From Alphaproteobacteria bacterium (GTDB taxonomy: Bacteria > Pseudomonadota > Alphaproteobacteria > MPNO01): a stretch of 64,000 nucleotides of DNA. Location of the stretch: assembly GCA_965203455.1 (NCBI GenBank), contig CBDBCV010000015.1, positions 219,359 to 283,358 on the forward strand. Direction: 5' to 3'. The position numbers were made by a program, and so were the translations under genes. The notes under the pieces are model-generated. The model was given only the letters and a program-made list of their open reading frames with translations, made no database searches and was not told where the DNA came from. This document shows positions 28,411 to 61,414 of the stretch, in pieces; position 1 is the first letter of the stretch, and each line of letters opens with the position of its first letter.

Positions 28411-28484
28411 CCAGTCGGCCAGCGTCGCGCGGGGCAGCTCAAGCCCCAGACGCCGCGTAGATCTGCGATTGACGGTAGAGCGGC

Positions 28485-30986: not shown

Positions 30987-31123
30987 CTTTCAGAATCAAT
31001 GAGATAATGCAAGGCGACCATGCTTCCGGCCCCGCTGTAAACGGGGCCGGACAGCTCGTCCTGGCGACACCGGGGAGACGGTGGGATGGACACCGTTCCC
31101 CGGTGAGGCGACAAGGTGCGCGA

Positions 31124-31477
31124 TCAGGCCGCCTGGCGCGGCCGTGGCCGTCGCACGGCCCGGACCGCCCGCCAATCGAGACCCTCGAACAACGCCGAGA
31201 ACTGCGCTGGCGACAGCCCGATCACTCCATCCGACGGGCGCGGCCACTGGAAGCCGCCGCCCTCCAGGCGCTTGTAGACCATGACCAGCCCGGTGCGGTC
31301 CCAGACCAGGATCTTCATCCTGTCGCCCCGCCTGGAGCGGAAGGCGAAGACCGCGCCGCTATAGGGGTCGTGGCCCAGCACCGTCTGCACCACCGCCGAC
31401 AGCCCGTCATGTCCCTTGCGGAAGTCGACGGGGCGGGTCGCCAGCCAGACCCGCACCTTCTCCCCGGTCAGGATCAT
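31124..31477 (-). CDS. tnpB: IS66 TnpB (Orf2)
   Basis: 117 aa, MILTGEKVRVWLATRPVDFRKGHDGL...; identical to the tnpB of copies D and E. Confidence 0.85.
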   Translation of the reverse strand: MILTGEKVRVWLATRPVDFRKGHDGLSAVVQTVLGHDPYSGAVFAFRSRRGDRMKILVWDRTGLVMVYKRLEGGGFQWPRPSDGVIGLSPAQFSALFEGLDWRAVRAVRRPRPRQAA

Positions 31478-31899
31478 GGCGCGGCCCGAACGCAGACCAG
31501 GATGCGCGACAGGTGCCCCGCGTCGAAGTCCGGCGGCACCACCACCCGGATGTCGGCGATCTCGATCGCGATACCGTCCCCGGGCGCCGATGCCGCGCCG
31601 TTCCGCTCAGCAGCCACCGACACCGTCACCGGGACCAGGCCGAACGGATCGTCGACCGCGCCGGAAACCGGGCCAAGAAGGCCGTCCCGAGCCATGCGCC
31701 GCCAGCCGCTCAACTGCGTCCGCGAAAGGCCGTGGCGCCGGGCAACACCCGCCACCGTCGCTCCCTCCTCGAACGTCTCCGCCACAATCCGCGCCTTCTC
31801 CGCTTCCGGCCACACCCGCGCGCCGTTCGCGCACGTCGCAACCGCAACCGCAGCGTCGGTGGCCTCCTCCGTTACTCGCTCATGCAATCTGTCTGTCAT
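31474..31899 (-). CDS. tnpA: IS66 TnpA (Orf1, HTH)
   Basis: 141 aa. HTH segment ATVAGVARRHGLSRTQLSGWRR. Identical to copies C and E; 1 aa different in D. Confidence 0.85.
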   Translation of the reverse strand: MTDRLHERVTEEATDAAVAVATCANGARVWPEAEKARIVAETFEEGATVAGVARRHGLSRTQLSGWRRMARDGLLGPVSGAVDDPFGLVPVTVSVAAERNGAASAPGDGIAIEIADIRVVVPPDFDAGHLSRILVCVRAAP

Positions 31900-31978
31900 C
31901 TGTCACCTCCGTCGTTGACAAGGGCCAGATGAACACGAAAATCTCAGGTCACAACGAGGGTGACGGCGCGGCGCTTAC

Positions 31979-32058
31979 TTGCGAAGCGCCGGAGGCTTGC
32001 GCTTCATGATCGCGCCGCCCCCCAGATGGGTCTCCACAAAAACGTCGTGCGGCGGCAT
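31979..32058 (-). pseudogene. Putative N-terminal fragment of an N6-adenine DNA methyltransferase, truncated by the IS66 copy B left end
   Basis: Minus-strand translation MPPHDVFVETHLGGGAIMKRKP resembles motif I (ExFxGGGA) of D12-class MTases. Only about 27 codons remain before the IS terminus, so this is weak. Confidence 0.3.
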
Positions 32059-32234
32059 CAGGCTCACGATCGCCTGGCAAAGCCCCGTCGTCGCCTTCGA
32101 TCCGTACCATGCCGCCATCGCCGCCCCCGACGCGCTTCGCCCGGACGGCCGGTCTATAGGGCGGACGGCCTATGGTGTCAAACGAAAATCCGTCCCAAAT
32201 CCAAAATCGACGCCGTGGTTTAACCGCTTACCCA

Positions 32235-32820
32235 CCGCCGACAGCCCGTCATGTCCCTTGCGGAAGTCGACGGGGCGGGTCGCCAGCCAGACCCGCACCT
32301 TCTCCCCGGTCAGGATCATGGCGCGGCCCGAACGCAGACCAGGATGCGCGACAGGTGCCCCGCGTCGAAGTCCGGCGGCACCACCACCCGGATGTCGGCG
32401 ATCTCGATCGCGATACCGTCCCCGGGCGCCGATGCCGCGCCGTTCCGCTCAGCAGCCACCGACACCGTCACCGGGACCAGGCCGAACGGATCGTCGACCG
32501 CGCCGGAAACCGGGCCAAGAAGGCCGTCCCGAGCCATGCGCCGCCAGCCGCTCAACTGCGTCCGCGAAAGGCCGTGGCGCCGGGCAACACCCGCCACCGT
32601 CGCTCCCTCCTCGAACGTCTCCGCCACAATCCGCGCCTTCTCCGCTTCCGGCCACACCCGCGCGCCGTTCGCGCACGTCGCAACCGCAACCGCAGCGTCG
32701 GTGGCCTCCTCCGTTACTCGCTCATGCAATCTGTCTGTCATCTGTCACCTCCGTCGTTGACAAGGGCCAGATGAACACGAAAATCTCAGGTCACAACGAG
32801 GGTGACGGCGCGGCGCTTAC
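32235..32820 (-). mobile_element. IS66 copy C: a 586-bp left-end fragment (IRL, tnpA, first third of tnpB), truncated inside tnpB
   Basis: Sequence identical to 31392..31978 of copy B including the terminal GTAAGCGCCGCGCC (ends 32820). Breaks at 32235, directly abutting ...GGTTTAACCGCTTAC. Confidence 0.75.
32316..32741 (-). CDS. tnpA: IS66 TnpA (in fragment C)
   Basis: Identical 141-aa protein. Confidence 0.85.
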   Translation of the reverse strand: MTDRLHERVTEEATDAAVAVATCANGARVWPEAEKARIVAETFEEGATVAGVARRHGLSRTQLSGWRRMARDGLLGPVSGAVDDPFGLVPVTVSVAAERNGAASAPGDGIAIEIADIRVVVPPDFDAGHLSRILVCVRAAP

Positions 32821-33598: not shown

Positions 33599-33607
33599 CG
33601 CCGCCGC

Positions 33608-34567
33608 TCACGGCGCGCGCCTTGCGCCGAAGGCGCCGAGCCAGTCCGCGGTATCGAACACGCCGTACGCCTCCTGGTGGGCCGGGCCGTGGAAGCGGCC
33701 TTCGAGCCGGTCGGTCCCGGCCGTCCCGGCGGCGAACCGCCCCCCGGCGAGCGGCATGTCTGTCCATTTCAGCGGCGCCTCGACGCCGTCGAGGGCGATG
33801 TCGACATCGACCCGGGGCCGCGACAGGTCTTCGATGGTCAGCGTCGCCGTGCCCGCGACCCGCTCGAACGCCCCCGTCGGGCTCGCCTCGGCGATGCCGG
33901 TCCAGGTCGCGCGCCCGGTTCCCGCCGGATTGCCGCCGGCGGCCGCGCCCGCCGCCCAGGCCCGCGCCAGCGTGAACGTGCCGGTCATCGCCGTTTCCCC
34001 GATCTCCGCCGACAGCGGGCCCGTGCCGAGGGTCAGGGCCGCGAAGCCGTGCGCGCCCCAGAACCCCCAGCTCGTCGCCTGCGGCGAGACGGTCACCGTC
34101 AGGTCGGGCAGCGTCTCCGCGACCGCGAAGCCGCCGACGGCCTTCACCGTATCGAACCCGCCCCTCTCGCCAATCGCCGCCGTGCCCGAACCGATACCTC
34201 CGTCCCCGGAGAGGTCGAGCAGGTCCCGCGCCGCCAGCGCCGCGCCGTCCGCCGCCATGCAGCGCGCCCCCGAACAGGTCACAGGCTCGACGAACGCGTC
34301 GTCGATGTCGTCCTCCCCCTCGGCGGAGAGCGACCAGCGCGCGTGAAGCCCGGTCATCGCCAGGGTGTCGGCGCCCTCGCGCAGCGTTTCGAGCCGGGCC
34401 AGGGGCGTCTCCCCGGAGTCCGGCGGCGTCCCGGGGCCGCCGGTGACCGGGGCGCCGCCGCCGCCGCCGCAGGCGGCGAGCATGAGCGCGGCCGCCGCGA
34501 ACGCCGCAGTGCGCAGGGGTGCGCCGTTCAGCGCGAACACGCTTCCCTTCCTCGTCATCGTCCGCAC
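33608..34567 (-). CDS. Surface lipoprotein with a TbpB/fHbp-like C-terminal beta-barrel (Slam-dependent lipoprotein type)
   Basis: Lipobox LMLAAC. C-terminal pattern ...GTATLTIEDLSRPRVDVDIALDGVEAPLKWTDMPLAGGRFAAGTAGTDRLEGRFHGPAHQEAYGVFDTADWLGAFGARR is typical of TbpB_B_D/fHbp lipid-anchored barrels. Confidence 0.55.
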   Translation of the reverse strand: MRTMTRKGSVFALNGAPLRTAAFAAAALMLAACGGGGGAPVTGGPGTPPDSGETPLARLETLREGADTLAMTGLHARWSLSAEGEDDIDDAFVEPVTCSGARCMAADGAALAARDLLDLSGDGGIGSGTAAIGERGGFDTVKAVGGFAVAETLPDLTVTVSPQATSWGFWGAHGFAALTLGTGPLSAEIGETAMTGTFTLARAWAAGAAAGGNPAGTGRATWTGIAEASPTGAFERVAGTATLTIEDLSRPRVDVDIALDGVEAPLKWTDMPLAGGRFAAGTAGTDRLEGRFHGPAHQEAYGVFDTADWLGAFGARRAP

Positions 34568-37028
34568 CCCGCTCAGTACCGCAGCGTCAGGTCGAGCCTG
34601 ATCGTCTGCTCCGGCCCGGACGCGCCGCCCTCGCGGTGCTCGCCCGCAAGCTCCACCGCCATGTCGGCGCGATGGGTATCGAACCGGGTCCCGAGCCGCA
34701 GCCGCCGGCTGTCGTCCCCTGCAAGCCCGGTCTCGGCAAACGGCGTCAGCAGGCCGTACGGCGTCAGGCCGAGGCCGTAGCCGATGCGGGCGTCAAGGGC
34801 CGCATCGGTGCCTGCGGCACTGTCCGCCGCCGGCAGCGCGTCGCGCCACAGCGCCTCGGCGCCGCCCGCCTCCGCGCCCCAGCGCGGGCTCAGCATCAGC
34901 GACAGGCCGCGCCCCTCGGCCCCCGGGCCGACCCGCGCCGTCACGCTGATGCCTTTCTCCTCGGCGCCGTCTTCCGTATGCGCCGCCAGCCACCGGCCCC
35001 GCGCCTCGACCTGCACCCGCGGCGCCGTCCAGCGCACGCCGCCGGCGATCTCCAGACCGGTCCCGGTCAGCCCGTCGCCGCCGTCCCGGCGCGCCGCCGC
35101 CTCCACGAACGGGGTCAGCGCCGTGGCGTCGTCGAGGGCGAAGCGCCGCGACGCCTCCATCCCGGCCCGCAGCCGCCAGCTGTCCGCCGTCAGACCATGG
35201 ACAGGGTCCGGACCCTCTTCCGTCTCCATCCGCGTCATGCTGGCATCCGCCCGCGCCGCCAGGTCGATCCCGGCCACCGGCGGCAGGGCGTGGCGCAGGC
35301 CCAGCGACGCCATCCGCATCGCGAGGTCGCCGGTCTCTTCCGTCTCGTCCTCCAGCCGGTGGCGCGCCTCGCCCCAGCCGGCGCCGAGCACGCCGCGCAG
35401 TTCCAGCCCCTCCGACACCGTCCAGCGCCCGTAGGGATACACCGCCGTCAGCTCGGTCTCCAGGCGGCCCGTCTCGCCGCCGTCGAGGCCGTAGTCCGCC
35501 TCGCCGGTGCCATGGCTCACCGCAAGCCCCGCCACCCAGGCCCCGGCCCGCGCGTCGATCCCCAGCCAGCCGGTGCGCATCTCGCCGTCGTAATGCATCC
35601 CGTCGGGATGCCCCGCGAAGGTCCCGTAGTCGCCCCGGCCCCACACCGCCCAGCGCGGCGCATGCGGGTCATGGCCCGCCTCGCCCTCGGCCGCGCCCAG
35701 GCCCAGCGAGAAGGCGCTCGCGTTCAGCAGCTGGTCCGACCCCACGGTCCGGCTCCCGGCACCGCCGCAGTCCGCGGTTGCGGCCCCGAGGCCGGTCCCG
35801 CCGAGGCCGTGGCGCCACGGGTCGCCGGCCGCGCAGGCGCCGCCCGCCAGGCTCGTCCCGGCACCGGACACGGCGAGCGGCACCGTCTCGCCGGCCAGGG
35901 TCAGGCCGCTCATCGGCGCCTCCGCCGTCAGACGCGCCCCGATATTGTCCAGCGCCCCGGTCAGCGCCCGCCGCGCCACCGCCGCCAGCGTGCGCCGCAC
36001 CGTCTGCTTCACCAGCGCCGTGCGCGCATTCTCCACCCTCACCTCGAAGGTCAGGATCGCCGCGTCCGCCTCGGTGCGGTTCGAATCCGCATCGTCCGCC
36101 CGCCAGGTGAAGGTCCAGCTGCCGCTCTCCGGAGGCGTACCCGAGAGACGCCGCGCCGCCATGTCGAACATGAGGCCCGCCAGGCCCGCAGGTTCTGAGG
36201 TCAGGGTGTAGGTGAGCGTGCCGTTGCCTCCGGTCGCCTCGGGCAGCGTCACCGCCGTCATCGCCGCGCCCGGGGCCAGATCCAGCGCCGATACCGAGGC
36301 GTCGCCGAAAGTCGGTGTCTCGTCCCGCACCGTCACCGTGAATGTCAGGATCGCCGCATCCGTCTCCGACCGGTTGCCGTCGGCATCGTCCGCCCGGTAC
36401 GTGAACGTCCAGCTGCCGCTCTCCGTCGGGGGCGTGCCCGAAAGCTGCCGCGTCTCCGGATCGAACGCGAGGCCCGCCAGACCTTGCGGAACCGAGGTCA
36501 GGGTGTAGGTCAGCGCCCCGTTGCCGCCCGTCGCCTCGGGCAGCACCACCGCCGTCATCGCCGCGCCCGGGGCCAGGTCCAGTGCCGGTACCGAGGCCTC
36601 GCCGAAAGTCGGCGCCTCGTCGCGCACCGTCACCGTGAAGGTCAGGATCGCCGCATCCGCCTCCGTCCGGTTGCTGTCGGCATCGTCGGCCCGGTATGTG
36701 AACGTCCAGCTGCCGATCTCCGGAGGCGTGCCCGAGAGCCGCCGCGTCGCCGGGTCGAAGGCAAGGCCGGCCAGGCCCGTGGGCGCCGAGGTCAGGGTGT
36801 AGCTCAGCGCCCCGTTGCCGCCCGTCGCCTCGGGCAGCACCACCGCCGTCATCGCCGCGCCCGGGGCCAGGTCCAGCGCCGTCACCGGTGCGTCGCCGAA
36901 CACCGGCGCCGCATCGCCCACCTTCACCCACACCGAGGCCGTGTCGGTCGTAAGCGCCGCGCCGTCACCCTCGTTGTGACCTGAGATTTTCGTGTTCATC
37001 TGGCCCTTGTCAACGACGGAGGTGACAG

Positions 37029-37454
37029 ATGACAGACAGATTGCATGAGCGAGTAACGGAGGAGGCCACCGACGCTGCGGTTGCGGTTGCGACGTGCGCG
37101 AACGGCGCGCGGGTGTGGCCGGAAGCGGAGAAGGCGCGGATTGTGGCGGAGACGTTCGAGGAGGGAGCGACGGTGGCGGGTGTTGCCCGGCGCCACGGCC
37201 TTTCGCGGACGCAGTTGAGCGGCTGGCGGCGCATGGCTCGGGACGGCCTTCTTGGCCCGGTTTCCGGCGCGGTCGACGATCCGTTCGGCCTGGTCCCGGT
37301 GACGGTGTCGGTGGCTGCTGAGCGGAACGGCGCGGCATCGGCGCCCGGGGACGGTATCGCGATCGCGATCGCCGACATCCGGGTGGTGGTGCCGCCGGAC
37401 TTCGACGCGGGGCACCTGTCGCGCATCCTGGTCTGCGTTCGGGCCGCGCCATGA
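37029..37454 (+). CDS. tnpA: IS66 TnpA (Orf1)
   Basis: 141 aa; 1 aa different from the other copies (IAIAIADI). Confidence 0.85.
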   Translation: MTDRLHERVTEEATDAAVAVATCANGARVWPEAEKARIVAETFEEGATVAGVARRHGLSRTQLSGWRRMARDGLLGPVSGAVDDPFGLVPVTVSVAAERNGAASAPGDGIAIAIADIRVVVPPDFDAGHLSRILVCVRAAP

Positions 37455-37804
37455 TCCTGACCGGGGAGAAGGTGCGGGTCTGGCTGGCGACCCGCCCCGT
37501 CGACTTCCGCAAGGGACATGACGGGCTGTCGGCGGTGGTGCAGACGGTGCTGGGCCACGACCCCTATAGCGGCGCGGTCTTCGCCTTCCGCTCCAGGCGG
37601 GGCGACAGGATGAAGATCCTGGTCTGGGACCGCACCGGGCTGGTCATGGTCTACAAGCGCCTGGAGGGCGGCGGCTTCCAGTGGCCGCGCCCGTCGGATG
37701 GAGTGATCGGGCTGTCGCCAGCGCAGTTCTCGGCGTTGTTCGAGGGTCTCGATTGGCGGGCGGTCCGGGCCGTGCGACGGCCACGGCCGCGCCAGGCGGC
37801 CTGA
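37451..37804 (+). CDS. tnpB: IS66 TnpB (Orf2)
   Basis: 117 aa, identical to other copies. ATGA overlap with tnpA. Confidence 0.85.
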   Translation: MILTGEKVRVWLATRPVDFRKGHDGLSAVVQTVLGHDPYSGAVFAFRSRRGDRMKILVWDRTGLVMVYKRLEGGGFQWPRPSDGVIGLSPAQFSALFEGLDWRAVRAVRRPRPRQAA

Positions 37805-37941
37805 TCGCGCACCTTGTCGCCTCACCGGGGAACGGTGTCCATCCCACCGTCTCCCCGGTGTCGCCAGGACGAGCTGTCCGGCCCCGTTTACAGCGGGGCC
37901 GGAAGCATGGTCGCCTTGCATTATCTCATTGATTCTGAAAG

Positions 37942-39579
37942 ATGGATCCGATGCCAACAAGCATGGGAAGCGCCGTTCCCGTGAGCGATCTGCAACGCCG
38001 TCTGGCGGCCGTCGAAGCCCAACTTGCGAAGGAGCGCGCCGAGCGCAAGGCCGCCGAGGATGCGCTGGCTGTGTCCGAGCAGGCGCGCGAACGCCTGGAG
38101 CGGATCATCGCCTCGCTGAACCATGCCGTGTGGGGCGCGCGCTCGGAGAAGCGCCATGCCGATCAGGACCGGCTGCCGCTGTTCGAGGACATCGCGGTCG
38201 CCGAGGGGATGTTGGCGGAAGCCCGGGAGAAGGCCGACGCGGCGACCGGCAGAGAACGGCGCAAGCCGCAGCCGACCAATCGTAATCTCGGCCATCTGCC
38301 CAGGCACCTTGAACGCTTCGAGAAGGTGATCGAGCCGCAGAGCACGGAGTGCCCTTGCGGCTGTGGCGCGATGACCAGGGTCGGCGAGGACCGCACCGAG
38401 CGGCTCGACATCGTGCCGGCGAAGTTGAGAGTGCTGGTGACGATCCGGCCGAAATACATCTGCCGCGCCTGCGAGGGCAAGCAGAGCGTCCAGGCGCCGG
38501 CGCCGGAATACCTGGTGCCGCGCGGCCTGCCGACCGAGGGGCTGGTGGCGCACACGCTGGTCGCCAAGTTCGCCGACCACCAACCGTTCTACCGTCAGAG
38601 CGAGGCATACCGGCGCGAGGGGATCGACCTCGACCGCACCATGCTGGGGAACTGGGCGGGGCGCGGGATGCAGGTGCTGGCCCCGGTGATCGACCGGATG
38701 ATCGAGCACCTCAAGGCGTCGGACGGTCTGTTCATGGACGAGACCACGGTGCCGGTGATGGCGCCGGGGACCGGCAAGACGCGCCTCGACTATCTGTGGG
38801 CGATCGCCCGCGATCAGCGCGGCTATGGCGGGGTCGACCCGCCGATCGTGGTGTTCCACCACTCGCGCCATCGAAGTGCGAAGGTCGCTCTGGAGTTGAT
38901 GCGGGGCTACACCGGCGGCGGCCCGCTGCATGTGGACGGCTACAGGGTGTACGATGCGCTCGGCGATCCGAAGCAGACGGTCAGCCCATGGGTGCTCGCC
39001 TACTGCTGGACCCACTGGCGGAGACGCTTCGTCGACTTCCAGCGCGCCACGGAGTCGCCCCTGTGCGAGGAAATCCTCGCACGGATCGCGGCGCTCTACC
39101 GGATCGAGACCATGGTGCGCGGTCACCCGCCAGAGCTGCGGCTGAAGGCGCGGCAGGAGTTGTCGGCGCCGATCGTCGAGGCCATGCGGCCCTGGCTCGA
39201 GGCCCGGCTCGACCGTCTGTCCAGCGCGTCCGAACTCGCCAGGCACATCCGCTACGCCCTCAAGCGCTGGGATGGCCTGTGCCGGTTCCTCCATGACGGA
39301 CGTATCGAGATGGACACCAACCCTGTCGAGAACCTCATCCGTCCGGTGAAGCTCACAAAGAAAAACGCGCTGTTCGCCGGCAGCGACGACGGCGCCAGGA
39401 CCTGGGCGCGGTGCGCCAGCCTGATCGGCACCTGCAAGCTCAACGGCGTCAATCCGCAGGTCTACCTGACCGACACCCTGCGCCGGATCATCGACATGCA
39501 CCCCCTGTCACGCATCGACGAACTCATGCCCTGGAACTTCGACCCGAAAATCCCGGGCCTCACACGTCAACAAGGGTAA
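37942..39579 (+). CDS. tnpC: IS66 transposase TnpC, intact 545 aa (intron-less allele)
   Basis: N-terminal leucine zipper and zinc finger (CPCGCG...CRACEG). DDE domain (...FMDETTV...HVDGYRVY...NPVENLIRP...). The uninterrupted site reads ...KFADHQPFYRQ... Confidence 0.9.
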   Translation: MDPMPTSMGSAVPVSDLQRRLAAVEAQLAKERAERKAAEDALAVSEQARERLERIIASLNHAVWGARSEKRHADQDRLPLFEDIAVAEGMLAEAREKADAATGRERRKPQPTNRNLGHLPRHLERFEKVIEPQSTECPCGCGAMTRVGEDRTERLDIVPAKLRVLVTIRPKYICRACEGKQSVQAPAPEYLVPRGLPTEGLVAHTLVAKFADHQPFYRQSEAYRREGIDLDRTMLGNWAGRGMQVLAPVIDRMIEHLKASDGLFMDETTVPVMAPGTGKTRLDYLWAIARDQRGYGGVDPPIVVFHHSRHRSAKVALELMRGYTGGGPLHVDGYRVYDALGDPKQTVSPWVLAYCWTHWRRRFVDFQRATESPLCEEILARIAALYRIETMVRGHPPELRLKARQELSAPIVEAMRPWLEARLDRLSSASELARHIRYALKRWDGLCRFLHDGRIEMDTNPVENLIRPVKLTKKNALFAGSDDGARTWARCASLIGTCKLNGVNPQVYLTDTLRRIIDMHPLSRIDELMPWNFDPKIPGLTRQQG

Positions 39580-40101
39580 CCGCGCGGCGCTTACTGTCGG
39601 TCTTCCCCTCCGGGTCGGTCACCGTGAGGCGGAACACCAGGATGTCCAGAGTGTACGGCCCGGCCGGTGCCGTGAACGTCGGCCGCGCCGTGTCCGCGCC
39701 CTCGAGCGCCACTGCCGTCCGGTAGATACCGCTCCACCCCAGCACCTGCCTCCAGGAATACCTCAGTTCGCCCCCGTCCGGGTCCGTGCTCTCCGAACCG
39801 TCCAGCCTCACCCGCGCCCCCGGCGCGGCATCGATCTCCGCCCCGGCATCCGCCCGCGGCGTGCCGGGGGGCGGGGTGTAGCTGGGGGTGGAGGTGGTGG
39901 GCGTGGTGGAGACGCTCCCCGTCGTCGTGCCGGCGGCGGTTGCGAAGGCGCTGCCGGGGCAGTTGGCGCCCTGTTCGCCGACCGTGGCCTGAAGCCGCAC
40001 CTGATAGGCCGTGCCGGCCTCCAGTCCGCTGATCGTGTAGCTGGTCGCGCCGGCGCTCGAGATCGTGACCGGGGTCCAGCTTCCCCGTAAGCGCCGCGCG
40101 G

Positions 40102-41739
40102 TTACCCTTGTTGACGTGTGAGGCCCGGGATTTTCGGGTCGAAGTTCCAGGGCATGAGTTCGTCGATGCGTGACAGGGGGTGCATGTCGATGATCCGGCG
40201 CAGGGTGTCGGTCAGGTAGACCTGCGGATTGACGCCGTTGAGCTTGCAGGTGCCGATCAGGCTGGCGCACCGCGCCCAGGTCCTGGCGCCGTCGTCGCTG
40301 CCGGCGAACAGCGCGTTTTTCTTTGTGAGCTTCACCGGACGGATGAGGTTCTCGACAGGGTTGGTGTCCATCTCGATACGTCCGTCATGGAGGAACCGGC
40401 ACAGGCCATCCCAGCGCTTGAGGGCGTAGCGGATGTGCCTGGCGAGTTCGGACGCGCTGGACAGACGGTCGAGCCGGGCCTCGAGCCAGGGCCGCATGGC
40501 CTCGACGATCGGCGCCGACAACTCCTGCCGCGCCTTCAGCCGCAGCTCTGGCGGGTGACCGCGCACCATGGTCTCGATCCGGTAGAGCGCCGCGATCCGT
40601 GCGAGGATTTCCTCGCACAGGGGCGACTCCGTGGCGCGCTGGAAGTCGACGAAGCGTCTCCGCCAGTGGGTCCAGCAGTAGGCGAGCACCCATGGGCTGA
40701 CCGTCTGCTTCGGATCGCCGAGCGCATCGTACACCCTGTAGCCGTCCACATGCAGCGGGCCGCCGCCGGTGTAGCCCCGCATCAACTCCAGAGCGACCTT
40801 CGCACTTCGATGGCGCGAGTGGTGGAACACCACGATCGGCGGGTCGACCCCGCCATAGCCGCGCTGATCGCGGGCGATCGCCCACAGATAGTCGAGGCGC
40901 GTCTTGCCGGTCCCCGGCGCCATCACCGGCACCGTGGTCTCGTCCATGAACAGACCGTCCGACGCCTTGAGGTGCTCGATCATCCGGTCGATCACCGGGG
41001 CCAGCACCTGCATCCCGCGCCCCGCCCAGTTCCCCAGCATGGTGCGGTCGAGGTCGATCCCCTCGCGCCGGTATGCCTCGCTCTGACGGTAGAACGGTTG
41101 GTGGTCGGCGAACTTGGCGACCAGCGTGTGCGCCACCAGCCCCTCGGTCGGCAGGCCGCGCGGCACCAGGTATTCCGGCGCCGGCGCCTGGACGCTCTGC
41201 TTGCCCTCGCAGGCGCGGCAGATGTATTTCGGCCGGATCGTCACCAGCACTCTCAACTTCGCCGGCACGATGTCGAGCCGCTCGGTGCGGTCCTCGCCGA
41301 CCCTGGTCATCGCGCCACAGCCGCAAGGGCACTCCGTGCTCTGCGGCTCGATCACCTTCTCGAAGCGTTCAAGGTGCCTGGGCAGATGGCCGAGATTACG
41401 ATTGGTCGGCTGCGGCTTGCGCCGTTCTCTGCCGGTCGCCGCGTCGGCCTTCTCCCGGGCTTCCGCCAACATCCCCTCGGCGACCGCGATGTCCTCGAAC
41501 AGCGGCAGCCGGTCCTGATCGGCATGGCGCTTCTCCGAGCGCGCGCCCCACACGGCATGGTTCAGCGAGGCGATGATCCGCTCCAGGCGTTCGCGCGCCT
41601 GCTCGGACACAGCCAGCGCATCCTCGGCGGCCTTGCGCTCGGCGCGCTCCTTCGCAAGTTGGGCTTCGACGGCCGCCAGACGGCGTTGCAGATCGCTCAC
41701 GGGAACGGCGCTTCCCATGCTTGTTGGCATCGGATCCAT
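40102..41739 (-). CDS. tnpC: IS66 transposase TnpC, intact 545 aa
   Basis: Identical to 37942..39579. Confidence 0.9.
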   Translation of the reverse strand: MDPMPTSMGSAVPVSDLQRRLAAVEAQLAKERAERKAAEDALAVSEQARERLERIIASLNHAVWGARSEKRHADQDRLPLFEDIAVAEGMLAEAREKADAATGRERRKPQPTNRNLGHLPRHLERFEKVIEPQSTECPCGCGAMTRVGEDRTERLDIVPAKLRVLVTIRPKYICRACEGKQSVQAPAPEYLVPRGLPTEGLVAHTLVAKFADHQPFYRQSEAYRREGIDLDRTMLGNWAGRGMQVLAPVIDRMIEHLKASDGLFMDETTVPVMAPGTGKTRLDYLWAIARDQRGYGGVDPPIVVFHHSRHRSAKVALELMRGYTGGGPLHVDGYRVYDALGDPKQTVSPWVLAYCWTHWRRRFVDFQRATESPLCEEILARIAALYRIETMVRGHPPELRLKARQELSAPIVEAMRPWLEARLDRLSSASELARHIRYALKRWDGLCRFLHDGRIEMDTNPVENLIRPVKLTKKNALFAGSDDGARTWARCASLIGTCKLNGVNPQVYLTDTLRRIIDMHPLSRIDELMPWNFDPKIPGLTRQQG

Positions 41740-41876
41740 CTTTCAGAATCAATGAGATAATGCAAGGCGACCATGCTTCCGGCCCCGCTGTAAACGGGGC
41801 CGGACAGCTCGTCCTGGCGACACCGGGGAGACGGTGGGATGGACACCGTTCCCCGGTGAGGCGACAAGGTGCGCGA

Positions 41877-42230
41877 TCAGGCCGCCTGGCGCGGCCGTGG
41901 CCGTCGCACGGCCCGGACCGCCCGCCAATCGAGACCCTCGAACAACGCCGAGAACTGCGCTGGCGACAGCCCGATCACTCCATCCGACGGGCGCGGCCAC
42001 TGGAAGCCGCCGCCCTCCAGGCGCTTGTAGACCATGACCAGCCCGGTGCGGTCCCAGACCAGGATCTTCATCCTGTCGCCCCGCCTGGAGCGGAAGGCGA
42101 AGACCGCGCCGCTATAGGGGTCGTGGCCCAGCACCGTCTGCACCACCGCCGACAGCCCGTCATGTCCCTTGCGGAAGTCGACGGGGCGGGTCGCCAGCCA
42201 GACCCGCACCTTCTCCCCGGTCAGGATCAT
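41877..42230 (-). CDS. tnpB: IS66 TnpB (Orf2)
   Basis: Identical 117 aa. Confidence 0.85.
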   Translation of the reverse strand: MILTGEKVRVWLATRPVDFRKGHDGLSAVVQTVLGHDPYSGAVFAFRSRRGDRMKILVWDRTGLVMVYKRLEGGGFQWPRPSDGVIGLSPAQFSALFEGLDWRAVRAVRRPRPRQAA

Positions 42231-42652
42231 GGCGCGGCCCGAACGCAGACCAGGATGCGCGACAGGTGCCCCGCGTCGAAGTCCGGCGGCACCACCACCC
42301 GGATGTCGGCGATCTCGATCGCGATACCGTCCCCGGGCGCCGATGCCGCGCCGTTCCGCTCAGCAGCCACCGACACCGTCACCGGGACCAGGCCGAACGG
42401 ATCGTCGACCGCGCCGGAAACCGGGCCAAGAAGGCCGTCCCGAGCCATGCGCCGCCAGCCGCTCAACTGCGTCCGCGAAAGGCCGTGGCGCCGGGCAACA
42501 CCCGCCACCGTCGCTCCCTCCTCGAACGTCTCCGCCACAATCCGCGCCTTCTCCGCTTCCGGCCACACCCGCGCGCCGTTCGCGCACGTCGCAACCGCAA
42601 CCGCAGCGTCGGTGGCCTCCTCCGTTACTCGCTCATGCAATCTGTCTGTCAT
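42227..42652 (-). CDS. tnpA: IS66 TnpA (Orf1)
   Basis: Identical 141 aa. Confidence 0.85.
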   Translation of the reverse strand: MTDRLHERVTEEATDAAVAVATCANGARVWPEAEKARIVAETFEEGATVAGVARRHGLSRTQLSGWRRMARDGLLGPVSGAVDDPFGLVPVTVSVAAERNGAASAPGDGIAIEIADIRVVVPPDFDAGHLSRILVCVRAAP

Positions 42653-44047
42653 CTGTCACCTCCGTCGTTGACAAGGGCCAGATGAACACGAAAATCTCAG
42701 GTCACAACGAGGGTGACGGCGCGGCGCTTACGCTTCCCCCCGTCTTGCGGTATTGCAGCTGCCAGCCGTTCCGCTCGGCCTGGGTCGGGGCGGTCCAGGT
42801 CAGGGACAGTCGGTCGGAACCCGGCGTGACCGACAGAGCCGTCGGCGGCTGTGCCGTCGGGCAGGTGACCCCGCCGGTCGGCGTCGCCGTCACCCAGGTC
42901 GTGGCCGTCCCGTCGCCGGCGCTGTTCACCGCCCGCACCCTGAAGCTGTACTCGGCGTCGTTGTCGAGGTTCCTCACCGTGTAGGTCAGGGTGCGGATGC
43001 CGGAACCGGGGATCGGGGCCCAGCTCGCACTGCCCCTGTCACCCGTCTTGGCGTAGATCAGCTTGTAGCCGGTGATGGTCGCGTCGTTCGGGTCGTTCCA
43101 GTTCAACGTCACCTGCCGGTCGCCCGCCGAAGCCCTGAAGCCGGGCGGGGCAGCGGGGCTGGTGACCCCGTCGTCGTCGACGATGGTCAGCGTGAGAGTG
43201 GCATCCCGGGTCCAGCCCGGCTCCTCGGAGGAAACATGCAGGATGATGGTCTCGTTGCTTTCGTCCCGGGTATCGCCGAGAATCCGGATCTTGACGGTTT
43301 CCTCGGTCTCGCCCTCGGCAATGGCGACGGCGGCGCTGTCCAACAGAAAGCACCAATCCGTATCCGCCGGTTGCAGCGGCGGCTCGCAGGCGTCCTGCGA
43401 TTTCGTGGGTTCCGTCGCCGTGCCCGGATCGCCGGCAGAGGAGATCAGGGCCGTGAAGTCCTCGGGCGCCGGCTCGCCGAGCGTGATGGTGACGGTGACG
43501 TCCGTGTGGCCGGAATTCCCCTCGGTGATCCGGGTCGAAGTCGCCGACAGCGTGATGGTCTTCGTGCTCGGGGCTTCGACGACCGTGAACGTGGTCGAGG
43601 TCGTCCCTTTCGAGGCGTCGCCGTCGGGACCGTTCCATTCCCAGGTGACCGTGTGCGTGCCGGGGCCCACCGTGGCGCAGGGATCGAAGTTGACGTTGCC
43701 GGTGCCGACGACCTGGGCGCTGATGACGGCGGGCGCCTCCGTGATCGACACGCCGTTCGTGGTGTCCTTGAGCGCACTGTCCGCCGGAACGGCGGTCCGG
43801 CCCGGGCGTTTCTCCAGATAGGTCGTGCCGTCATAGGAAACCGAAAGCAGGTTGTAGCACACCACCACCGTGCCCCCGGCCCCCGCCGTCACGCGCCTGT
43901 CCGGGTCGGAGATGAGAACCGGAGGGGCCGCGGTCGGGGTGGCGGGGGCATTGTTGCTGTTTGCAAATGCCTGTTCTACGGTACCTCCACCACTGAGCCG
44001 AACCGGCTGAACGCTGAAGGTATACGCGGTGCCGTTGGTGAGACCCG

Positions 44048-45040
44048 TTACCGTGTAACTTCTGGTTGAGGTGGCGTCGGTTTGTCGGACAGGCTGACGG
44101 CGTTTTCAAGGTGTATTCCGGTTGAAGTTTGTGCCGCCAGAATCCTCTTGGATCGATCTTTCTGCTGCTGCTGTTGCGCCTGTGGGTATGTGGTCAAGGC
44201 GCGAAGCGGCTTGTCCATCATATCCACAGGCGTGTCGCCCCGGTAGGCCTCGGCCGGCGTCCGCCCGCCGAGTGCCGAGTGCGGTCTCTCGGTGTTGTAG
44301 AAGCCGATCCACTGGCCGATGACGCGCCGGGCTGCGAAGCCGTCGGCGATCTCGTGCAGGTAGACCGCCTCGTATTTGAGCGAGCGCCACAGCCGCTCGA
44401 TGAAGATGTTGTCCATGCACCGGCCGCGGCCGTCCATCGAGATGCGGATACCGGCCTCCCGCAGGCGCGCGGTGAAGGCGAAGCCGGTGAACTGGCTGCC
44501 CTGGTCGGTGTTGAAGATCTGCGGGGTGCCATGGCGCGCCAGGGCTTCGTCGAGAGCCTCGACACAGAACCCCGCGTCCAGCGTGTTCGACAGCCGCCAG
44601 GCCAGGACGCAGCGGCTCGCCCAGTCCATGATCGCCACCAGGTAGAGGAAGCCGCGCCGCACCGGGATGTAGGTGATGTCGGCGCACCACACATGGTTCG
44701 GCCGCTCGATCGCCAGACCCCGCAGCAGATATGGATAAACCCGGTGCCCGAGGTGCGGCGCACTGGTCCGCGGCGCCCGATAGACCGCCTGAAGACCAAG
44801 CAGGCGCATCAGGCGAGCGGCCCGCCGCCGCCCGATCCGCACCCCCTCGCGGCGCAGATGCCGAACCATCTGGCGGGCGCCGTAGAACGGATACTTGAGG
44901 AACAGCGCGTCGATCCGGCGCATCAGAGCCAGCGTCTCCGCGCTCTCCCCCTTCGGCCGGTCATAGAGCGACGAGCGCCCGATCGACAGCAGACGGCATT
45001 GCCGGGTCAGGCTCAACGACGGGTGGCCCCGCACAACCAT
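44048..45040 (-). CDS. IS3 OrfB (DDE integrase-core transposase); stop codon lies 20 nt outside the IS end
   Basis: rve-type catalytic core (CADITYI...DWASRCVLAW...FNTDQGSQFT...ERLWRSLKYE). The frame runs ...KPTPPQ across the terminus and stops in flanking DNA. Confidence 0.85.
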   Translation of the reverse strand: MVVRGHPSLSLTRQCRLLSIGRSSLYDRPKGESAETLALMRRIDALFLKYPFYGARQMVRHLRREGVRIGRRRAARLMRLLGLQAVYRAPRTSAPHLGHRVYPYLLRGLAIERPNHVWCADITYIPVRRGFLYLVAIMDWASRCVLAWRLSNTLDAGFCVEALDEALARHGTPQIFNTDQGSQFTGFAFTARLREAGIRISMDGRGRCMDNIFIERLWRSLKYEAVYLHEIADGFAARRVIGQWIGFYNTERPHSALGGRTPAEAYRGDTPVDMMDKPLRALTTYPQAQQQQQKDRSKRILAAQTSTGIHLENAVSLSDKPTPPQPEVTR

Positions 45041-45408
45041 CGCCCGTCTCCCGGACCGGCTCAGCGACCGGACCCGCGTGACAAAAAATCACGCTCTACG
45101 ATCAACTCCCCGATCTTGGCGTGAAGAGCCCGGACCTCGCTCTCGTGATCCCGCGCCCGGCGCTCACCTCCACCGGAAAAGACCTCCCCCAGACCCTCCA
45201 TCGCCTGGCGCTTCCACACACCCACCTGGTTCGGATGCACCTGGTGCTTCGAGGCAATCTCCTGAAGCGTCCGATCACCCCGTAGCGCCTCCAAGGCTAT
45301 CTTCGCCTTCAGCTCCCCCGAAAACCTGCGTCGCTTGCTCATCCGCATTCCTCCGTCACACGGCGGAATACACCTTGACGACCTGTCCGATTTTGCGACG
45401 CCACCTCA
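44068..45408 (-). mobile_element. IS3-family element copy a (1341 bp) with 3-bp TSD GGT
   Basis: Terminal IRs TGAGGTGGCGTCG...TCGGACAGG...CAAGGTGTATTCCG at both ends. GGT repeated at 44065..44067 and 45409..45411. orfA/orfB pair in -1 frame arrangement. Confidence 0.85.
45061..45348 (-). CDS. IS3 OrfA (HTH)
   Basis: 95 aa, MRMSKRRRFSGELKAKIALEALRGDRTLQEIASKHQVHPNQVGVWKRQ... is the typical IS3 OrfA with HTH and leucine zipper. Confidence 0.85.
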   Translation of the reverse strand: MRMSKRRRFSGELKAKIALEALRGDRTLQEIASKHQVHPNQVGVWKRQAMEGLGEVFSGGGERRARDHESEVRALHAKIGELIVERDFLSRGSGR

Positions 45409-46040
45409 GGTGGCGGCATTGGAACTCGGGATGGTGTTAGTGACACTGGTCGCCGACCCCGTCTGGCTGTACCTCCAGGCGTTGTGCCCGCTACCGCCGT
45501 AGGTCCAGGTCAGCGTGACCTGCCCGTCGCCTGGCGTCGCGGTGAGGACGACCTGCGCCTGCGCGGCCTGGGGCGCGAGGGCGGCGGCGAGTGTCAGCAG
45601 CAGAAAGGCAGCAAGCGCCGCGCTCAGGCGGCGAACAGGTCTCCCGGGGGCGCCCACCGGATCAGCCCCGCGCCCGGATGCCGAATCCTCGGGGGGGGGG
45701 GTACGAAGGTCGCGCGCGCGTGAGGCGGTCACGTCCTCACCCCGCCCGGACAGCCGCCGCAGGAGGCCGCGCATCGCAATGACGCTTGCAATGTTCGTCA
45801 TGACCTCACCCCCGGTACCGGACTTTGATTGATGCGACCGCAGAACAGCGGCAGCAAGCCTTTCAGCCTCGTTCTTCTTTAGGAAAAACAGCGACCCGCT
45901 GCAAGCCCTGCGCGACCGCTGCATTGCTTGCCCGGGGTCCTGCGAAGGAGTAGCGTCGCCGGGAATGCAGGGTGCCGGGACGGCGGCAGGAGAAACTCCC
46001 GCGCGCGCCATAGGGCCCGGCGCTGCGCAGGGAGAGGGCA

Positions 46041-47606
46041 ATGACCCGGCAGCGTTTACCCATCGGGATCCAGGACTTCCGGACGATCCGGAGCGAGGGC
46101 TTCTACTATGTCGACAAGACCCCGCTGATCCGGCGGCTGGTGGACGAGGGGCGCCACTACTTCCTGTCGCGTCCGCGCCGCTTCGGCAAGAGCCTGCTGC
46201 TCGACACGCTGCGGTCGCTGTTCGCCTGCGACGAGCCGCTGTTCCGGGGGCTGGACATCCACCCGCACTGGGACTGGTCCGCGCCGCACCCGGTGGTGCG
46301 GCTCAGCTTCGACGGCAAGTACAACGAACCGGGCGAGATCGAGCGCAACGTCCTCAACCAGCTGGCCATCATCGAACATGCTGCCGATCTCGACACGGGG
46401 CCGGTCGCCGACACGGGGCCGGAGCGCCTGCAGAATGTCCTTTATCGCCTGCGCCACGCCACCGGCCGGCAGGCCGTGGTGCTGGTGGACGAATACGACA
46501 AGCCGATCCTGGACGTGCTCCATGACCCGGAGCTTGCGCGGGCCAACCGGGACTGGCTGCGGGGCTTCTACGGCATCGTCAAGGGCAGCGCCGAACATGT
46601 CCGCTTCGTCTTCGTCACCGGGGTGAGCATGTTCTCGAAGGTCAGCCTGTTCTCGGGCCTCAACAACCTCAAGGACATCAGCCTCGATCCGCGCTACGCC
46701 GCGATCTGCGGCTACCGGGACGAGGACCTGGACCGGGTGTTCGCTCCAGAACTCGACGGGCTGGATCGGGAGGAGATCCGCGCCTGGTACGACGGCTACC
46801 GCTGGCGGGGCAGGGAGCCGGTCTACAACCCCTACGATGTGCTGCTGCTGCTGGACAGCCGCGAGTTCCGCCCCTGGTGGTTCGAGACCGGGTCTCCGGA
46901 CTTCCTGTTCCGCATGCTGATGGAGCAGTCGGTGAGCCCGATGGAGCTGGAGGGCCGGCTGGCCGGGATGGATCTGGTCTCCAAGTTCGACGTGGGCGAC
47001 ATCGGCATCGAGGCGCTGCTCTTCCAGACCGGCTACCTCACCATCGCGGGCGAGGAGCGGGACGACTTCGATATCCTCTACCGTCTGGACTATCCCAATC
47101 GTGAGGTCCGGCTCAGCCTGAACCGGGGATTGCTCGCCTGGCTGGGCAAGAAGGGCGTCGAGCCCCTGGAGCGGGGGCGGGAGTTCTGCGCCCTGCTTGA
47201 GGCGCACGACTTCGCGGGCTTCGGCGAGACGCTGCGCGCCTGGCTCGCGGGCATTCCCTACCAGTGGCATGCGAGGGGGGACCTCGCGCGCTACGAGGCG
47301 TGGTATGCGAGCCTGCTCTACATGTGCCTGCGCGCGGTCGGTGCCGACCTGCGGGTGGAGGAGGCCTCCGCCCGCGGCCGGGCGGACATGGTGCTGCGTC
47401 TCGGCGGGCAGGTCTTCGTGATCGAGTTCAAGGTGGCGGAGACCGAGGACGGCCGCGCGGCCGCGCTCGATGCGGCCATGGCGCAGATGCGCGAACGGGG
47501 CTATGCGGACAAGTACCGCGACCATGACGGGCCGGTCCACCTGGTCGGCGTGGCCTGCGGCCGCGAGGCGCGCAACCTTCTCGACATCCGCGCTGAACCC
47601 GCATGA
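46041..47606 (+). CDS. AAA-ATPase-like domain protein with a C-terminal PD-(D/E)XK nuclease domain (PF09820 + PF08011 architecture)
   Basis: N-terminal FYYVDKTPLI...RPRRFGKSLLLDTL (degenerate Walker A). C-terminal PDDEXK_9-type region (...RADMVLRLGGQVFVIEFKV...). Sits between the adhesin start (divergent) and IS1182 copy 2. Confidence 0.75.
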   Translation: MTRQRLPIGIQDFRTIRSEGFYYVDKTPLIRRLVDEGRHYFLSRPRRFGKSLLLDTLRSLFACDEPLFRGLDIHPHWDWSAPHPVVRLSFDGKYNEPGEIERNVLNQLAIIEHAADLDTGPVADTGPERLQNVLYRLRHATGRQAVVLVDEYDKPILDVLHDPELARANRDWLRGFYGIVKGSAEHVRFVFVTGVSMFSKVSLFSGLNNLKDISLDPRYAAICGYRDEDLDRVFAPELDGLDREEIRAWYDGYRWRGREPVYNPYDVLLLLDSREFRPWWFETGSPDFLFRMLMEQSVSPMELEGRLAGMDLVSKFDVGDIGIEALLFQTGYLTIAGEERDDFDILYRLDYPNREVRLSLNRGLLAWLGKKGVEPLERGREFCALLEAHDFAGFGETLRAWLAGIPYQWHARGDLARYEAWYASLLYMCLRAVGADLRVEEASARGRADMVLRLGGQVFVIEFKVAETEDGRAAALDAAMAQMRERGYADKYRDHDGPVHLVGVACGREARNLLDIRAEPA

Positions 47607-54128: not shown

Positions 54129-54188
54129 TGAGGTGGCGTCGCAAAATCGGACAGGTCGTCAAGGTGTATTCCGCCGTGTGACGGAGGA

Positions 54189-54476: not shown

Positions 54477-54496
54477 GCCGGTCCGGGAGACGGGCG

Positions 54497-56725: not shown

Positions 56726-56946
56726 CCAAATCCCTCCTCTGACCGCTTCGCTTCACTCGGGTCGGGGAGGAACCACGGCAAATCTCAATCTCTTGAACGA
56801 GGTCGCGGGAACCCCGCGCCATCAGTGACAGAAGCCGATCATGGTTCGGGCCACGCTACTTTACGGGTGCCTGAGCACGCCATTGCCAAGCCGGCCTCGA
56901 CTGCCCCGACCGCCCGACGAATCACATCTTCGAACTGCGCCAGCAA

Positions 56947-61324: not shown

Positions 61325-61414
61325 TCGCCGGAGTTCAGGAACAACGTAATGCTTCCGTTCTCGGGTGACGGCAGCGGCCGAACCGACGGTAAATCCGCAA
61401 TCTGTCTTGCCGCC

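What the first reader, a model, noticed from the sequence alone, without database searches (positions are those of the whole stretch)
34573..45774. Giant FN3/cadherin-like autotransporter-type adhesin gene hit three times by IS elements, with two IS66 copies in opposite orientation 492 bp apart
The roughly 11-kb adhesin locus is interrupted by IS3 copy a (TSD GGT), IS66 copy E (TSD GCTTCCCC) and IS66 copy D (TSD TGTCGGTC). All three are clean independent insertions with intact target duplications. Copies D and E are identical 2645-bp elements in inverted orientation, so they can mediate inversion or deletion of the intervening adhesin segment. Downstream on the same strand lies a TbpB/fHbp-like surface lipoprotein (33608..34567), so the locus looks like a surface-antigen module being dismantled by IS activity.
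Basis: seen in the sequence. Interest (0 to 1): 0.5.

Follow-up and report, generated by a model that had tools for sequence, protein, structure and literature searches.

The report
Adhesin gene broken by three insertions
One copy of a 1,477-residue surface adhesin gene, carried on a decaying mobile element in what looks like a sponge-symbiont genome, has been cut by three jumping-gene insertions; this is ordinary gene decay, because an intact near-identical copy is recorded on a contig of the same length, taken to be the same contig.

Summary
Two IS66 elements (36950-39594 and 40087-42731; 2645 bp, one mismatch, inverted, 492 bp apart) and one IS3-family element (44067-45408) sit in one minus-strand gene. 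Each has its own target duplication (TGTCGGTC, GCTTCCCC, GGT).

Removing each IS plus one duplication restores a single ORF. It encodes 1477 aa from GTG 45657, with ATG 45801 or 45774 as possible alternatives. It differs at 5 residues from an intact 1477-aa protein (P0362). P0362 is recorded on a 534,553-bp contig, the same length as for the window's own gene products. The ORF is also colinear with intact genes in related metagenome contigs, whose alignments break exactly at the IS ends.

The protein has a signal peptide, three FN3 domains, a PKD-like domain, three He_PIG domains and a type Va autotransporter beta-domain. It is not giant: about 60% of the "11 kb" is IS.

The downstream 316-aa lipoprotein is intact and has a TbpB/hemophilin/fHbp fold.

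In relatives the adhesin-lipoprotein pair lies next to F-type transfer genes of an integrative conjugative element. Here those genes are missing, and half of the surrounding 36 kb is mobile DNA.

Most likely this is neutral decay of a redundant copy. No inversion has occurred. Interest is low.

The parts
45409..45657 (-). Adhesin gene fragment A. It covers codons 1-82 from GTG 45657, with alternative ATG starts at 45774 and 45801. It carries the signal peptide and the start of the first FN3 domain. 45409-45411 is one copy of the GGT duplication.
44067..45408 (-). IS3-family element, 1342 bp. The ends read TGAGGTGGCG...CGCCACCTCA. orfA (45061-45348) has an HTH_Tnp_1 domain and orfB (from 45040) has rve/DDE domains. 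The 3-bp duplication is GGT. orfB has no stop codon inside the element.
42732..44066 (-). Adhesin gene fragment B, codons 83-525. It holds the rest of FN3-1, a weakly Calx-beta-like region, FN3-2 and most of FN3-3.
40087..42731 (-). IS66 copy 2, 2645 bp. TnpA is at 42227-42652, TnpB at 41877-42230 and TnpC at 40102-41739, all on the minus strand. The 8-bp duplication is GCTTCCCC.
39595..40086 (-). Adhesin gene fragment C, codons 525-686. This is the 492-bp piece between the two IS66 copies (end of FN3-3, a Thr/Pro linker, the PKD-like domain). It is still in the original orientation.
36950..39594 (+). IS66 copy 1, 2645 bp. TnpA is at 37029-37454, TnpB at 37451-37804 and TnpC at 37942-39579. 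The 8-bp duplication is TGTCGGTC. It differs from copy 2 at one base (37366).
34573..36949 (-). Adhesin gene fragment D, codons 686-1477 plus the stop. It holds three tandem He_PIG (cadherin-like Ig) repeats of about 296 nt, a long helix and the autotransporter beta-domain, and ends ...LTLRY. The public gene call for this fragment is the 808-aa protein P0241, which starts inside the IS66 end.
33608..34558 (-). Intact 316-aa lipoprotein gene with lipobox LAAC. It starts 14 bp after the adhesin stop codon. The predicted fold is a TbpB-lobe/hemophilin/fHbp handle plus an 8-stranded barrel.
46041..47606 (+). Divergently transcribed 521-aa AAA-ATPase_like/PDDEXK_9 gene, intact. It is the conserved upstream neighbour of the adhesin gene in related elements.
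30347..32820 (.). Two truncated copies of the same IS66 (30347-31978 and 32232-32820) with 253 bp between them. They lie beyond the lipoprotein gene, on the side where related elements carry the S24-peptidase, HTH_17 and TraL-TraC genes.
56875..60033 (+). TrwC-type relaxase/helicase gene. It is a leftover of the conjugative element.
62883..63998 (-). Tyrosine integrase gene (Arm-DNA-bind_3 plus Phage_integrase domains). It is 72% identical at DNA level to the integrase next to the adhesin locus in L001.

Best explanation
The region is one copy of a 1477-aa type Va autotransporter adhesin gene. Its layout is a Sec signal peptide, three FN3 domains, a PKD-like domain, three cadherin-like He_PIG domains and a C-terminal beta-barrel. 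It forms a tight two-gene unit with a TbpB-fold lipoprotein gene.

The unit is cargo of an integrative conjugative element with F-type transfer genes. That element circulates among MAGs whose titles and related hits point to sponge-associated bacteria.

In this genome the element copy is defunct. Its transfer genes are gone and ISs have piled up in it. Three separate transposition events, two by an expanding IS66 and one by an IS3-family element, each cut the adhesin gene and left a clean target duplication.

The copy is therefore a pseudogene. The lipoprotein gene is intact but has probably lost its promoter. An intact copy with only 5 amino-acid differences appears to lie on the same contig, so nothing selects against these hits.

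Shown: the insertions, their independence, the restored frame, the domain content, the folds, the conserved neighbourhood and the existence of the intact copy P0362. Inferred: that P0362 lies in the same genome (from matching contig length only), the neutral-decay reading, the loss of lipoprotein expression and the sponge-symbiont origin.
For: - IS boundaries, orientation and duplications.
- IS families: IS66 TnpA/TnpB/TnpC, and IS3 orfA/orfB with rve domains.
- Restored frame: a single ORF after IS and duplication removal.
- Match to intact homologues: gap-free alignment across all three sites with P0002 and P0003, 88% identity.
- Empty sites: L001 and L002 alignments break at the IS ends with 8-bp overlaps, and the IS3 site is contiguous in L001.
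- Intact copy: P0362 has 1477 aa and 5 differences from the reconstruction. It and the window's own products P0121 and P0241 are all listed with a 534,553-bp longest contig.
- Third copy: P0363 ends in GKRRAVTLVVT, which is the translation of the IS66 end.
- Domains.
- Conserved layout: the order adhesin, lipoprotein, S24 peptidase, HTH_17, TraL-TraC recurs in L001, L002 and L008. The adhesin-lipoprotein pair recurs in L001-L007.
- Element remnants: the window keeps a relaxase and an integrase, but no tra genes were found among the ORFs scanned.
- Mobile DNA makes up 49% of 27.4-64 kb.
- Three or more hits in a gene that is 24% of the non-IS DNA has probability 0.23-0.38 for 7-9 random insertions.
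- A homologue in another MAG (L005) is cut by an IS4-family element with a 9-bp duplication.
Against: - Neutrality is inferred, not measured. IS66 has hit copies of this gene at three different sites (two here, one in P0363), so a target preference or selection for loss cannot be excluded.
- The other two copies could not be fetched as DNA. Their context, and whether P0362 is expressed, are unknown.
- That they lie on the same contig rests on the reported contig length of 534,553 bp, not on coordinates.
- Whole-protein Pfam scanning did not list PF03797. Only the isolated C-terminal domain did.
- The barrel model has more strands than the canonical 12 and one low-confidence stretch.
Confidence: 0.85

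Rival explanations
1. Adaptive inactivation. Loss of this surface adhesin, for example to escape host recognition or phage or predator attachment, is favoured, and IS hits are the means. The repeated hits would then reflect selection rather than drift.
For: Copies of the gene have been hit at least four times in this genome: three in the window, plus one IS66 in P0363. A homologue in another MAG is hit by an IS4-family element.
Against: One insertion is enough to kill the gene, so two further hits add nothing that selection could act on. An intact, nearly identical copy is retained. The whole neighbourhood is 49% mobile DNA, and three hits are expected by chance with probability of about 0.3. 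The lipoprotein partner is untouched.
Confidence: 0.08
2. The two inverted IS66 copies and the 492-bp piece act as a unit. This would be either a composite transposon that inserted as a whole, or an invertible switch.
For: There are 2645-bp inverted arms at 99.96% identity with a short spacer.
Against: Each IS66 has its own matching 8-bp duplication. The outer flanks (TGTCGGTC and GCTTCCCC) do not match each other. The 492 bp is the exact, correctly oriented continuation of the adhesin gene in L001 and L002. The gene is already dead from the IS3 hit upstream, so an inversion would switch nothing.
Confidence: 0.03
3. Assembly artefact. Repeated IS copies were misplaced into the gene when a metagenome bin was assembled.
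For: The window holds many identical repeats, and close relatives are MAGs.
Against: All three junction pairs carry exact duplications of the length typical for each IS family. They also restore the reading frame to the base. A misassembly would not create these features.
Confidence: 0.03

Closest known systems
Classical (type Va) autotransporter adhesins such as AIDA-I, and the NalP, Hbp and EstA translocators
   Different: The passenger is built of FN3, PKD-like and He_PIG Ig-type domains rather than a beta-helix. The predicted C-terminal domain is about 360 aa with about 16-17 DSSP strands, against the usual 12 strands in about 270 aa. About 90 residues separate the long helix from the first barrel strand.
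IS66 family insertion sequences
   Same: It has three ORFs: an HTH TnpA, a TnpB_IS66 and a DDE_Tnp_IS66 TnpC with zinc-finger and leucine-zipper parts. It makes an 8-bp target duplication, and its terminal repeats begin GTAAGCG.
   Different: Nothing unusual. No copy at 85% DNA identity or more was found in the plasmid collection.
IS3 family insertion sequences
   Same: It has orfA with HTH_Tnp_1 and orfB with HTH_21/rve/rve_3 domains. It makes a 3-bp duplication and has TG...CA ends.
   Different: orfB has no stop codon within the element. It reads through the terminal repeat into the flanking DNA, so its tail differs between copies.
Slam/T11SS-dependent surface lipoproteins (TbpB, LbpB, fHbp, HpuA, NHBA, hemophilin, PmSLP)
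   Different: The Pfam TbpB_B_D score is below the cut-off (16.9 against 26 bits). No DUF560/Slam or TonB-dependent receptor gene lies next to it in any locus examined. The partner gene is instead an autotransporter, on a conjugative element. No ligand is known.
Eukaryotic-like (FN3, cadherin) surface proteins and high mobile-element loads reported for sponge symbionts
   Same: The domain content matches. Relatives come from MAGs named Ca. Poriferihabitaceae. Beta-domain homologues are named from Ca. Synechococcus spongiarum and Ca. Poribacteria. The papers listed treat such domains as symbiosis traits; only their titles and abstract openings were read here.
   Different: Here the domains are the passenger of an autotransporter carried by a conjugative element. 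This copy is a pseudogene.

Membership tests
Type Va autotransporter | C-terminal autotransporter beta-domain (PF03797 / TIGR01414) above the curated cut-off | tested here: met
   With the C-terminal 487 aa alone, PF03797 scores 47.3 bits against a cut-off of 26. TIGR01414 scores 24 bits against 16. The whole-protein scan did not list PF03797.
Type Va autotransporter | Fold of the C-terminal domain matches solved translocator domains | tested here: met
Type Va autotransporter | 12-stranded barrel with a linker helix in the pore | tested here: inconclusive
   DSSP on the model shows about 16-17 strands between residues 128 and 485. There is a low-confidence stretch at 356-410. A 32-residue helix lies about 90 residues before the first strand. 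Coordinates could not be inspected.
Type Va autotransporter | N-terminal Sec signal peptide | tested here: met
   This was read from the sequence only: RRLSAALAAFLLLTLAAALAPQAAQA followed by QV. No predictor was run.
Type Va autotransporter | Passenger displayed on the cell surface | not testable with these tools
   This needs expression of the intact copy.
IS66 family | TnpA, TnpB and TnpC ORFs with a DDE_Tnp_IS66 domain | tested here: met
   PF05717 at 5.6e-39 and PF03050 at 3.4e-90, plus zf-IS66, LZ_Tnp_IS66 and the IS66 C-terminal element.
IS66 family | 8-bp target duplication and terminal inverted repeats | tested here: met
   TGTCGGTC and GCTTCCCC flank the two copies. The ends begin GTAAGCGCCGCGC.
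IS3 family | orfA (HTH) and orfB (rve DDE integrase core), a 3-bp duplication and TG...CA ends | tested here: met
IS3 family | Programmed -1 frameshift joining orfA and orfB | not tested
   No slippery site was sought.
TbpB/fHbp-type (Slam-dependent) surface lipoprotein | Lipobox and the handle plus 8-stranded beta-barrel fold | tested here: met
TbpB/fHbp-type (Slam-dependent) surface lipoprotein | Pfam TbpB_B_D (PF01298) above the gathering score | tested here: not met
   16.9 bits against a cut-off of 26, covering the last 35 residues only.
TbpB/fHbp-type (Slam-dependent) surface lipoprotein | Slam (DUF560) translocon or TonB-dependent receptor gene adjacent | tested here: not met
   None is present in the window around the gene or in L001, L002, L008, L009 or L010. 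Whole genomes were not searched.
Integrative conjugative element with F-type T4SS | Integrase, relaxase and T4SS genes together | tested here: not met
   The relaxase (56875-60033) and integrase (62883-63998) are present. No Tra gene was found among the window ORFs scanned, though not every stretch was scanned. Relatives have TraL-E-K-B-V-C beside the pair. The window therefore holds a remnant, not a complete element.

The most novel reading that the evidence does not exclude
The adhesin-plus-TbpB-fold-lipoprotein pair always sits directly upstream of the repressor and transfer-gene block. It may therefore be a dedicated accessory of a family of F-type conjugative elements that moves between sponge-associated bacteria of different classes. 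Its role would be host-matrix attachment or cell-cell contact for mating. The lipoprotein would reach the surface without a neighbouring Slam, possibly with help from the autotransporter.
Probability: 0.15. Interest if true: 0.55.

Novelty: new member of a known kind. Interest (0 to 1): 0.2.

Why it matters
As a finding it matters little. It is a clean textbook case of IS-driven pseudogene formation in a redundant, mobile-element-borne gene.

It does have some practical uses:

- The public gene calls for this locus (the 808-aa P0241) are fragments that start inside an IS end. They should not be read as real proteins.
- The source genome appears to carry at least three copies of the gene in different states of decay. 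That gives a small natural time series of IS expansion.
- The conserved adhesin-lipoprotein pair on a conjugative element may be shared across bacterial classes in sponges. It is a reasonable candidate for study of how symbionts attach to hosts or to each other.

Tried and rejected
- Plasmid collection: no match for the adhesin-lipoprotein DNA, and only a 6% partial match for the IS66.
- Sequence search of the PDB with the C-terminal domain: nothing found.
- Whole-protein Pfam scan: it missed the autotransporter domain, so the domain had to be scanned alone.
- Fetching the source contig or the other two gene copies: failed, because P0121, P0241, P0362 and P0363 are not in the position index.
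- Is the autotransporter-lipoprotein pairing general? No. Lipoprotein homologues at 42-44% identity stand alone. Beta-domain homologues at 45-48% identity have no such neighbour. The idea of an obligate autotransporter-coupled lipoprotein export module was therefore downgraded.
- Literature: a search for the pairing turned up no description of it in the two most relevant papers checked.
- Composite-transposon and invertible-switch readings of the IS66 pair: rejected on the duplication pattern.
- The repeats at 862-2760 and 28484-30382: first taken for an IS, they are group II introns.
- Pfam on the ORFs between the lipoprotein gene and the IS66 fragment (32891-33598, 33028-33975) and in 49.5-52 kb: nothing found.
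Full report
**1. What is in the sequence**

A self-comparison of the 64-kb window (68.8% G+C) finds a 2646-nt inverted repeat with arms at 36949-39594 and 40087-42732 and 492 nt between them. It also finds three full copies of a 1342-bp element, one of them at 44067-45408.

Reading the junctions sets the first IS66 at 36950-39594, flanked by TGTCGGTC on both sides. The second is at 40087-42731, flanked by GCTTCCCC. The 1342-bp element is at 44067-45408, flanked by GGT.

The two IS66 copies differ at a single base: IS position 417, C at 37366 against A at 42315. Two truncated copies of the same IS at 30347-31978 and 32232-32820 carry the A.

Pfam confirms the families:
- The 2645-bp element encodes an HTH TnpA, TnpB_IS66 (5.6e-39) and a 545-aa TnpC with DDE_Tnp_IS66 (3.4e-90).
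- The 1342-bp element encodes an HTH_Tnp_1 orfA and an rve-type orfB, as in the IS3 family.

**2. Does the gene reconstitute?**

Yes. I deleted each IS together with one copy of its duplication. The result is one open frame on the minus strand from 46302 to the stop at 34573.

From GTG 45657 the product is 1477 aa. The insertions fall at codons 82 (IS3), 525 and 686 (IS66).

The four gene pieces add up to 4434 bp. So about 60% of the "11-kb locus" is IS, and "giant" is an overstatement.

**3. Intact alleles**

A protein search found full-length relatives of 1481 and 1489 aa (P0002 and P0003; 86-87% identity over 95-97% of the query). The reconstruction aligns with them end to end, with no gap at any insertion site (88% identity).

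Their loci L001 and L002 are colinear with the window at 90-95% DNA identity. The alignments stop exactly at the IS ends and overlap by 8 bp, which are the target duplications:
- L001 8367-9572 matches window 43943-42732.
- L001 9565-10071 matches 40086-39595.
- L001 10064-12598 matches 36949-34420.

The IS3 site is also contiguous in L001. The 492-bp piece lies in the same orientation as its neighbours. Together with the unswapped duplications, this shows that the two inverted IS66 copies have not recombined.

A cluster look-up was more telling. P0362, a 1477-aa protein, is listed with a 534,553-bp longest contig, the same as the window's own products P0121 and P0241. It differs from the reconstruction at only five residues, all within residues 712-781.

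A third copy, P0363, matches up to residue 785 apart from seven substitutions (residues 707-781). It then reads GKRRAVTLVVT-stop, which is the translation of the IS66 terminal repeat. IS66 has therefore cut that copy at yet another site.

I could not fetch the DNA of these copies. Their placement on the same contig rests on the matching contig length alone.

**4. What the protein is**

Pfam on the reconstruction gives three FN3 domains (1.9e-29), a K319L-like PKD domain (4.1e-14) and three He_PIG Ig/cadherin-like domains (3.3e-11). There is also a weak Calx-beta-like signal. The three He_PIG units are the ~296-nt tandem repeats at 36130-37016.

The C-terminal 487 residues, scanned alone, hit the autotransporter beta-domain PF03797 at 47.3 bits against a cut-off of 26. 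They also hit TIGR01414.

The N-terminus carries a typical signal peptide, as read from the sequence.

One oddity remains. The model shows about 16-17 strands rather than 12, and part of that region has low confidence.

**5. The neighbouring lipoprotein**

The ORF at 33608-34558 encodes 316 aa with lipobox LAAC. It begins 14 bp after the adhesin stop codon.

Pfam gives only a sub-threshold TbpB_B_D hit. A model built on 61 homologues is confident, however (pLDDT 87.4).

No Slam or TonB-receptor gene is nearby in any locus examined. Slam dependence is thus not established.

**6. Context**

In L001, L002 and L008 the gene order is:
1. AAA-ATPase/PDDEXK_9 (divergent; L001 and L002 only);
2. adhesin;
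3. lipoprotein;
4. S24 peptidase (divergent);
5. HTH_17;
6. TraL, TraE, TraK, TraB, TraV and TraC.

This is the edge of a conjugative element with an F-type type IV secretion system. In L001 an integrase lies beside it. The adhesin-lipoprotein pair recurs in all seven related loci.

The genomic relatives are long-read MAGs titled Ca. Poriferihabitaceae, Alphaproteobacteria and Gammaproteobacteria. Poriferihabitaceae appears in a sponge genome note. Beta-domain homologues carry names from Ca. Synechococcus spongiarum and Poribacteria, both known from sponges, among other MAG taxa. These are pointers to a sponge-associated setting, not proof.

The pairing does not extend to distant members of either family.

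In the window, 3-27 kb holds housekeeping genes: LeuRS, PEPCK, a two-component system, HPr kinase and EIIA. From 27.4 kb onward, 49% of the DNA is mobile.

The AAA-ATPase gene is intact (46041-47606). A TrwC relaxase (56875-60033) and an integrase (62883-63998) survive. The S24-HTH-Tra block is missing. Similarity to the related loci ends about 0.4-0.7 kb before the IS66 fragments that lie on that side. This element copy is therefore a wreck.

**7. How it most likely works**

Each insertion is an ordinary transposition that duplicated its target. The first one already inactivated the gene, and the later ones fell into a dead gene inside a dead element.

The gene is 24% of the non-IS DNA in this stretch. 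With 7-9 insertions there, three or more hits are expected by chance with probability 0.23-0.38. No targeting is needed to explain the count.

A homologue in another MAG (L005) is independently cut by an IS4-family element with a 9-bp duplication, CCCCCGGGC.

The inverted IS66 pair could flip the 492-bp piece by homologous recombination. It could not delete it, and a flip would have no consequence.

The lipoprotein gene is intact. It is separated from the adhesin promoter by three ISs, so it is probably silent. This last point is inference.

**8. Verdict**

The observation and its main interpretation are correct. The case is clean but ordinary.

The only mildly novel thread is the conserved autotransporter-plus-TbpB-fold-lipoprotein cassette on a conjugative element that may be shared among sponge-associated bacteria. 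I found no description of it in the two papers checked.

Noticed in passing
898-2760 (+) and 28484-30346 (-): Two 99.5%-identical group II introns. Rfam finds RF01999 and RF00029, and the ORF at 1388-2695 has RVT_1 and GIIM domains. Both sit at the same codon (about 213, motif LAHVLVSKYxDH) of IS66-family TnpC genes. Copy b joins an N-part identical to the IS66 of the finding (30347-31978) to the C-part of a diverged IS66 (27502-28483). Copy a has the diverged N-part (324-897) on its left. This suggests retrohoming into IS66 transposase genes, followed by recombination or inversion between the introns across the 25.7-kb housekeeping block. The simple inversion model does not fully fit, because no IS66 C-part lies at 2761 onward.
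   Followed up: partly
Not in the window: proteins P0362 and P0363, listed with a 534,553-bp longest contig: The source genome appears to carry at least three copies of the adhesin gene: one intact (1477 aa, 5 differences from the reconstruction), one cut by IS66 after residue 785, and the window copy with three insertions.
   Followed up: partly
44048-45040, 54129-55470 and 61156-62436: orfB of the IS3-family element has no stop codon inside the element. It reads through the terminal repeat into flanking DNA, giving 330 aa in copy a, 410 aa in copy c and more than 457 aa in copy b.
   Followed up: partly
53929-54128: A 200-bp tandem duplicate of the IS3 end lies directly beside the full copy at 54129-55470. 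That copy has no matching 3-bp duplication (GCG against GGG). This may be a trace of an IS dimer or of an insertion into an older copy.
   Followed up: no
L005:7254-9975 (approximate): The adhesin homologue in Alphaproteobacteria MAG OZ241893.1 is interrupted by an IS4-family element (NCBIfam transpos_IS4_3, 2.3e-75) with a 9-bp duplication, CCCCCGGGC. The site is equivalent to the inside of the window's 492-bp piece.
   Followed up: yes
34576-36036 (C-terminal domain of the adhesin): The predicted beta-domain is about 360 aa with about 16-17 DSSP strands and a 32-residue helix roughly 90 residues upstream of the barrel. It is larger than the canonical 12-strand autotransporter barrel. Residues 356-410 of the model have low confidence.
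   Followed up: partly
19676-21638 and 47695-49657: Two identical, inverted copies of an IS5/IS1182-like element (DDE_Tnp_1 plus DUF772) lie 26 kb apart. Copy a is flanked by CCGG on both sides; copy b has no matching flank. A recombination event may have involved copy b.
   Followed up: no
8547-8659 and 14151-14263: A 113-bp inverted repeat (95.6% identity) brackets the LeuRS gene, a DUF3576 gene and an IS256/Mutator-family transposase gene (12110-13435).
   Followed up: no
L002:1411-5409: L002 carries a second, shorter autotransporter (990 aa) plus lipoprotein (336 aa) pair in tandem, upstream of the main pair. Passenger domains differ between copies while the beta-domain is conserved, so the family evolves by swapping passenger modules.
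   Followed up: partly
L003:10102-10315: The stop-to-stop ORF of the L003 homologue begins about 200 nt after the start of the protein-level match. An in-frame stop or a frameshift near the N-terminus is possible.
   Followed up: no
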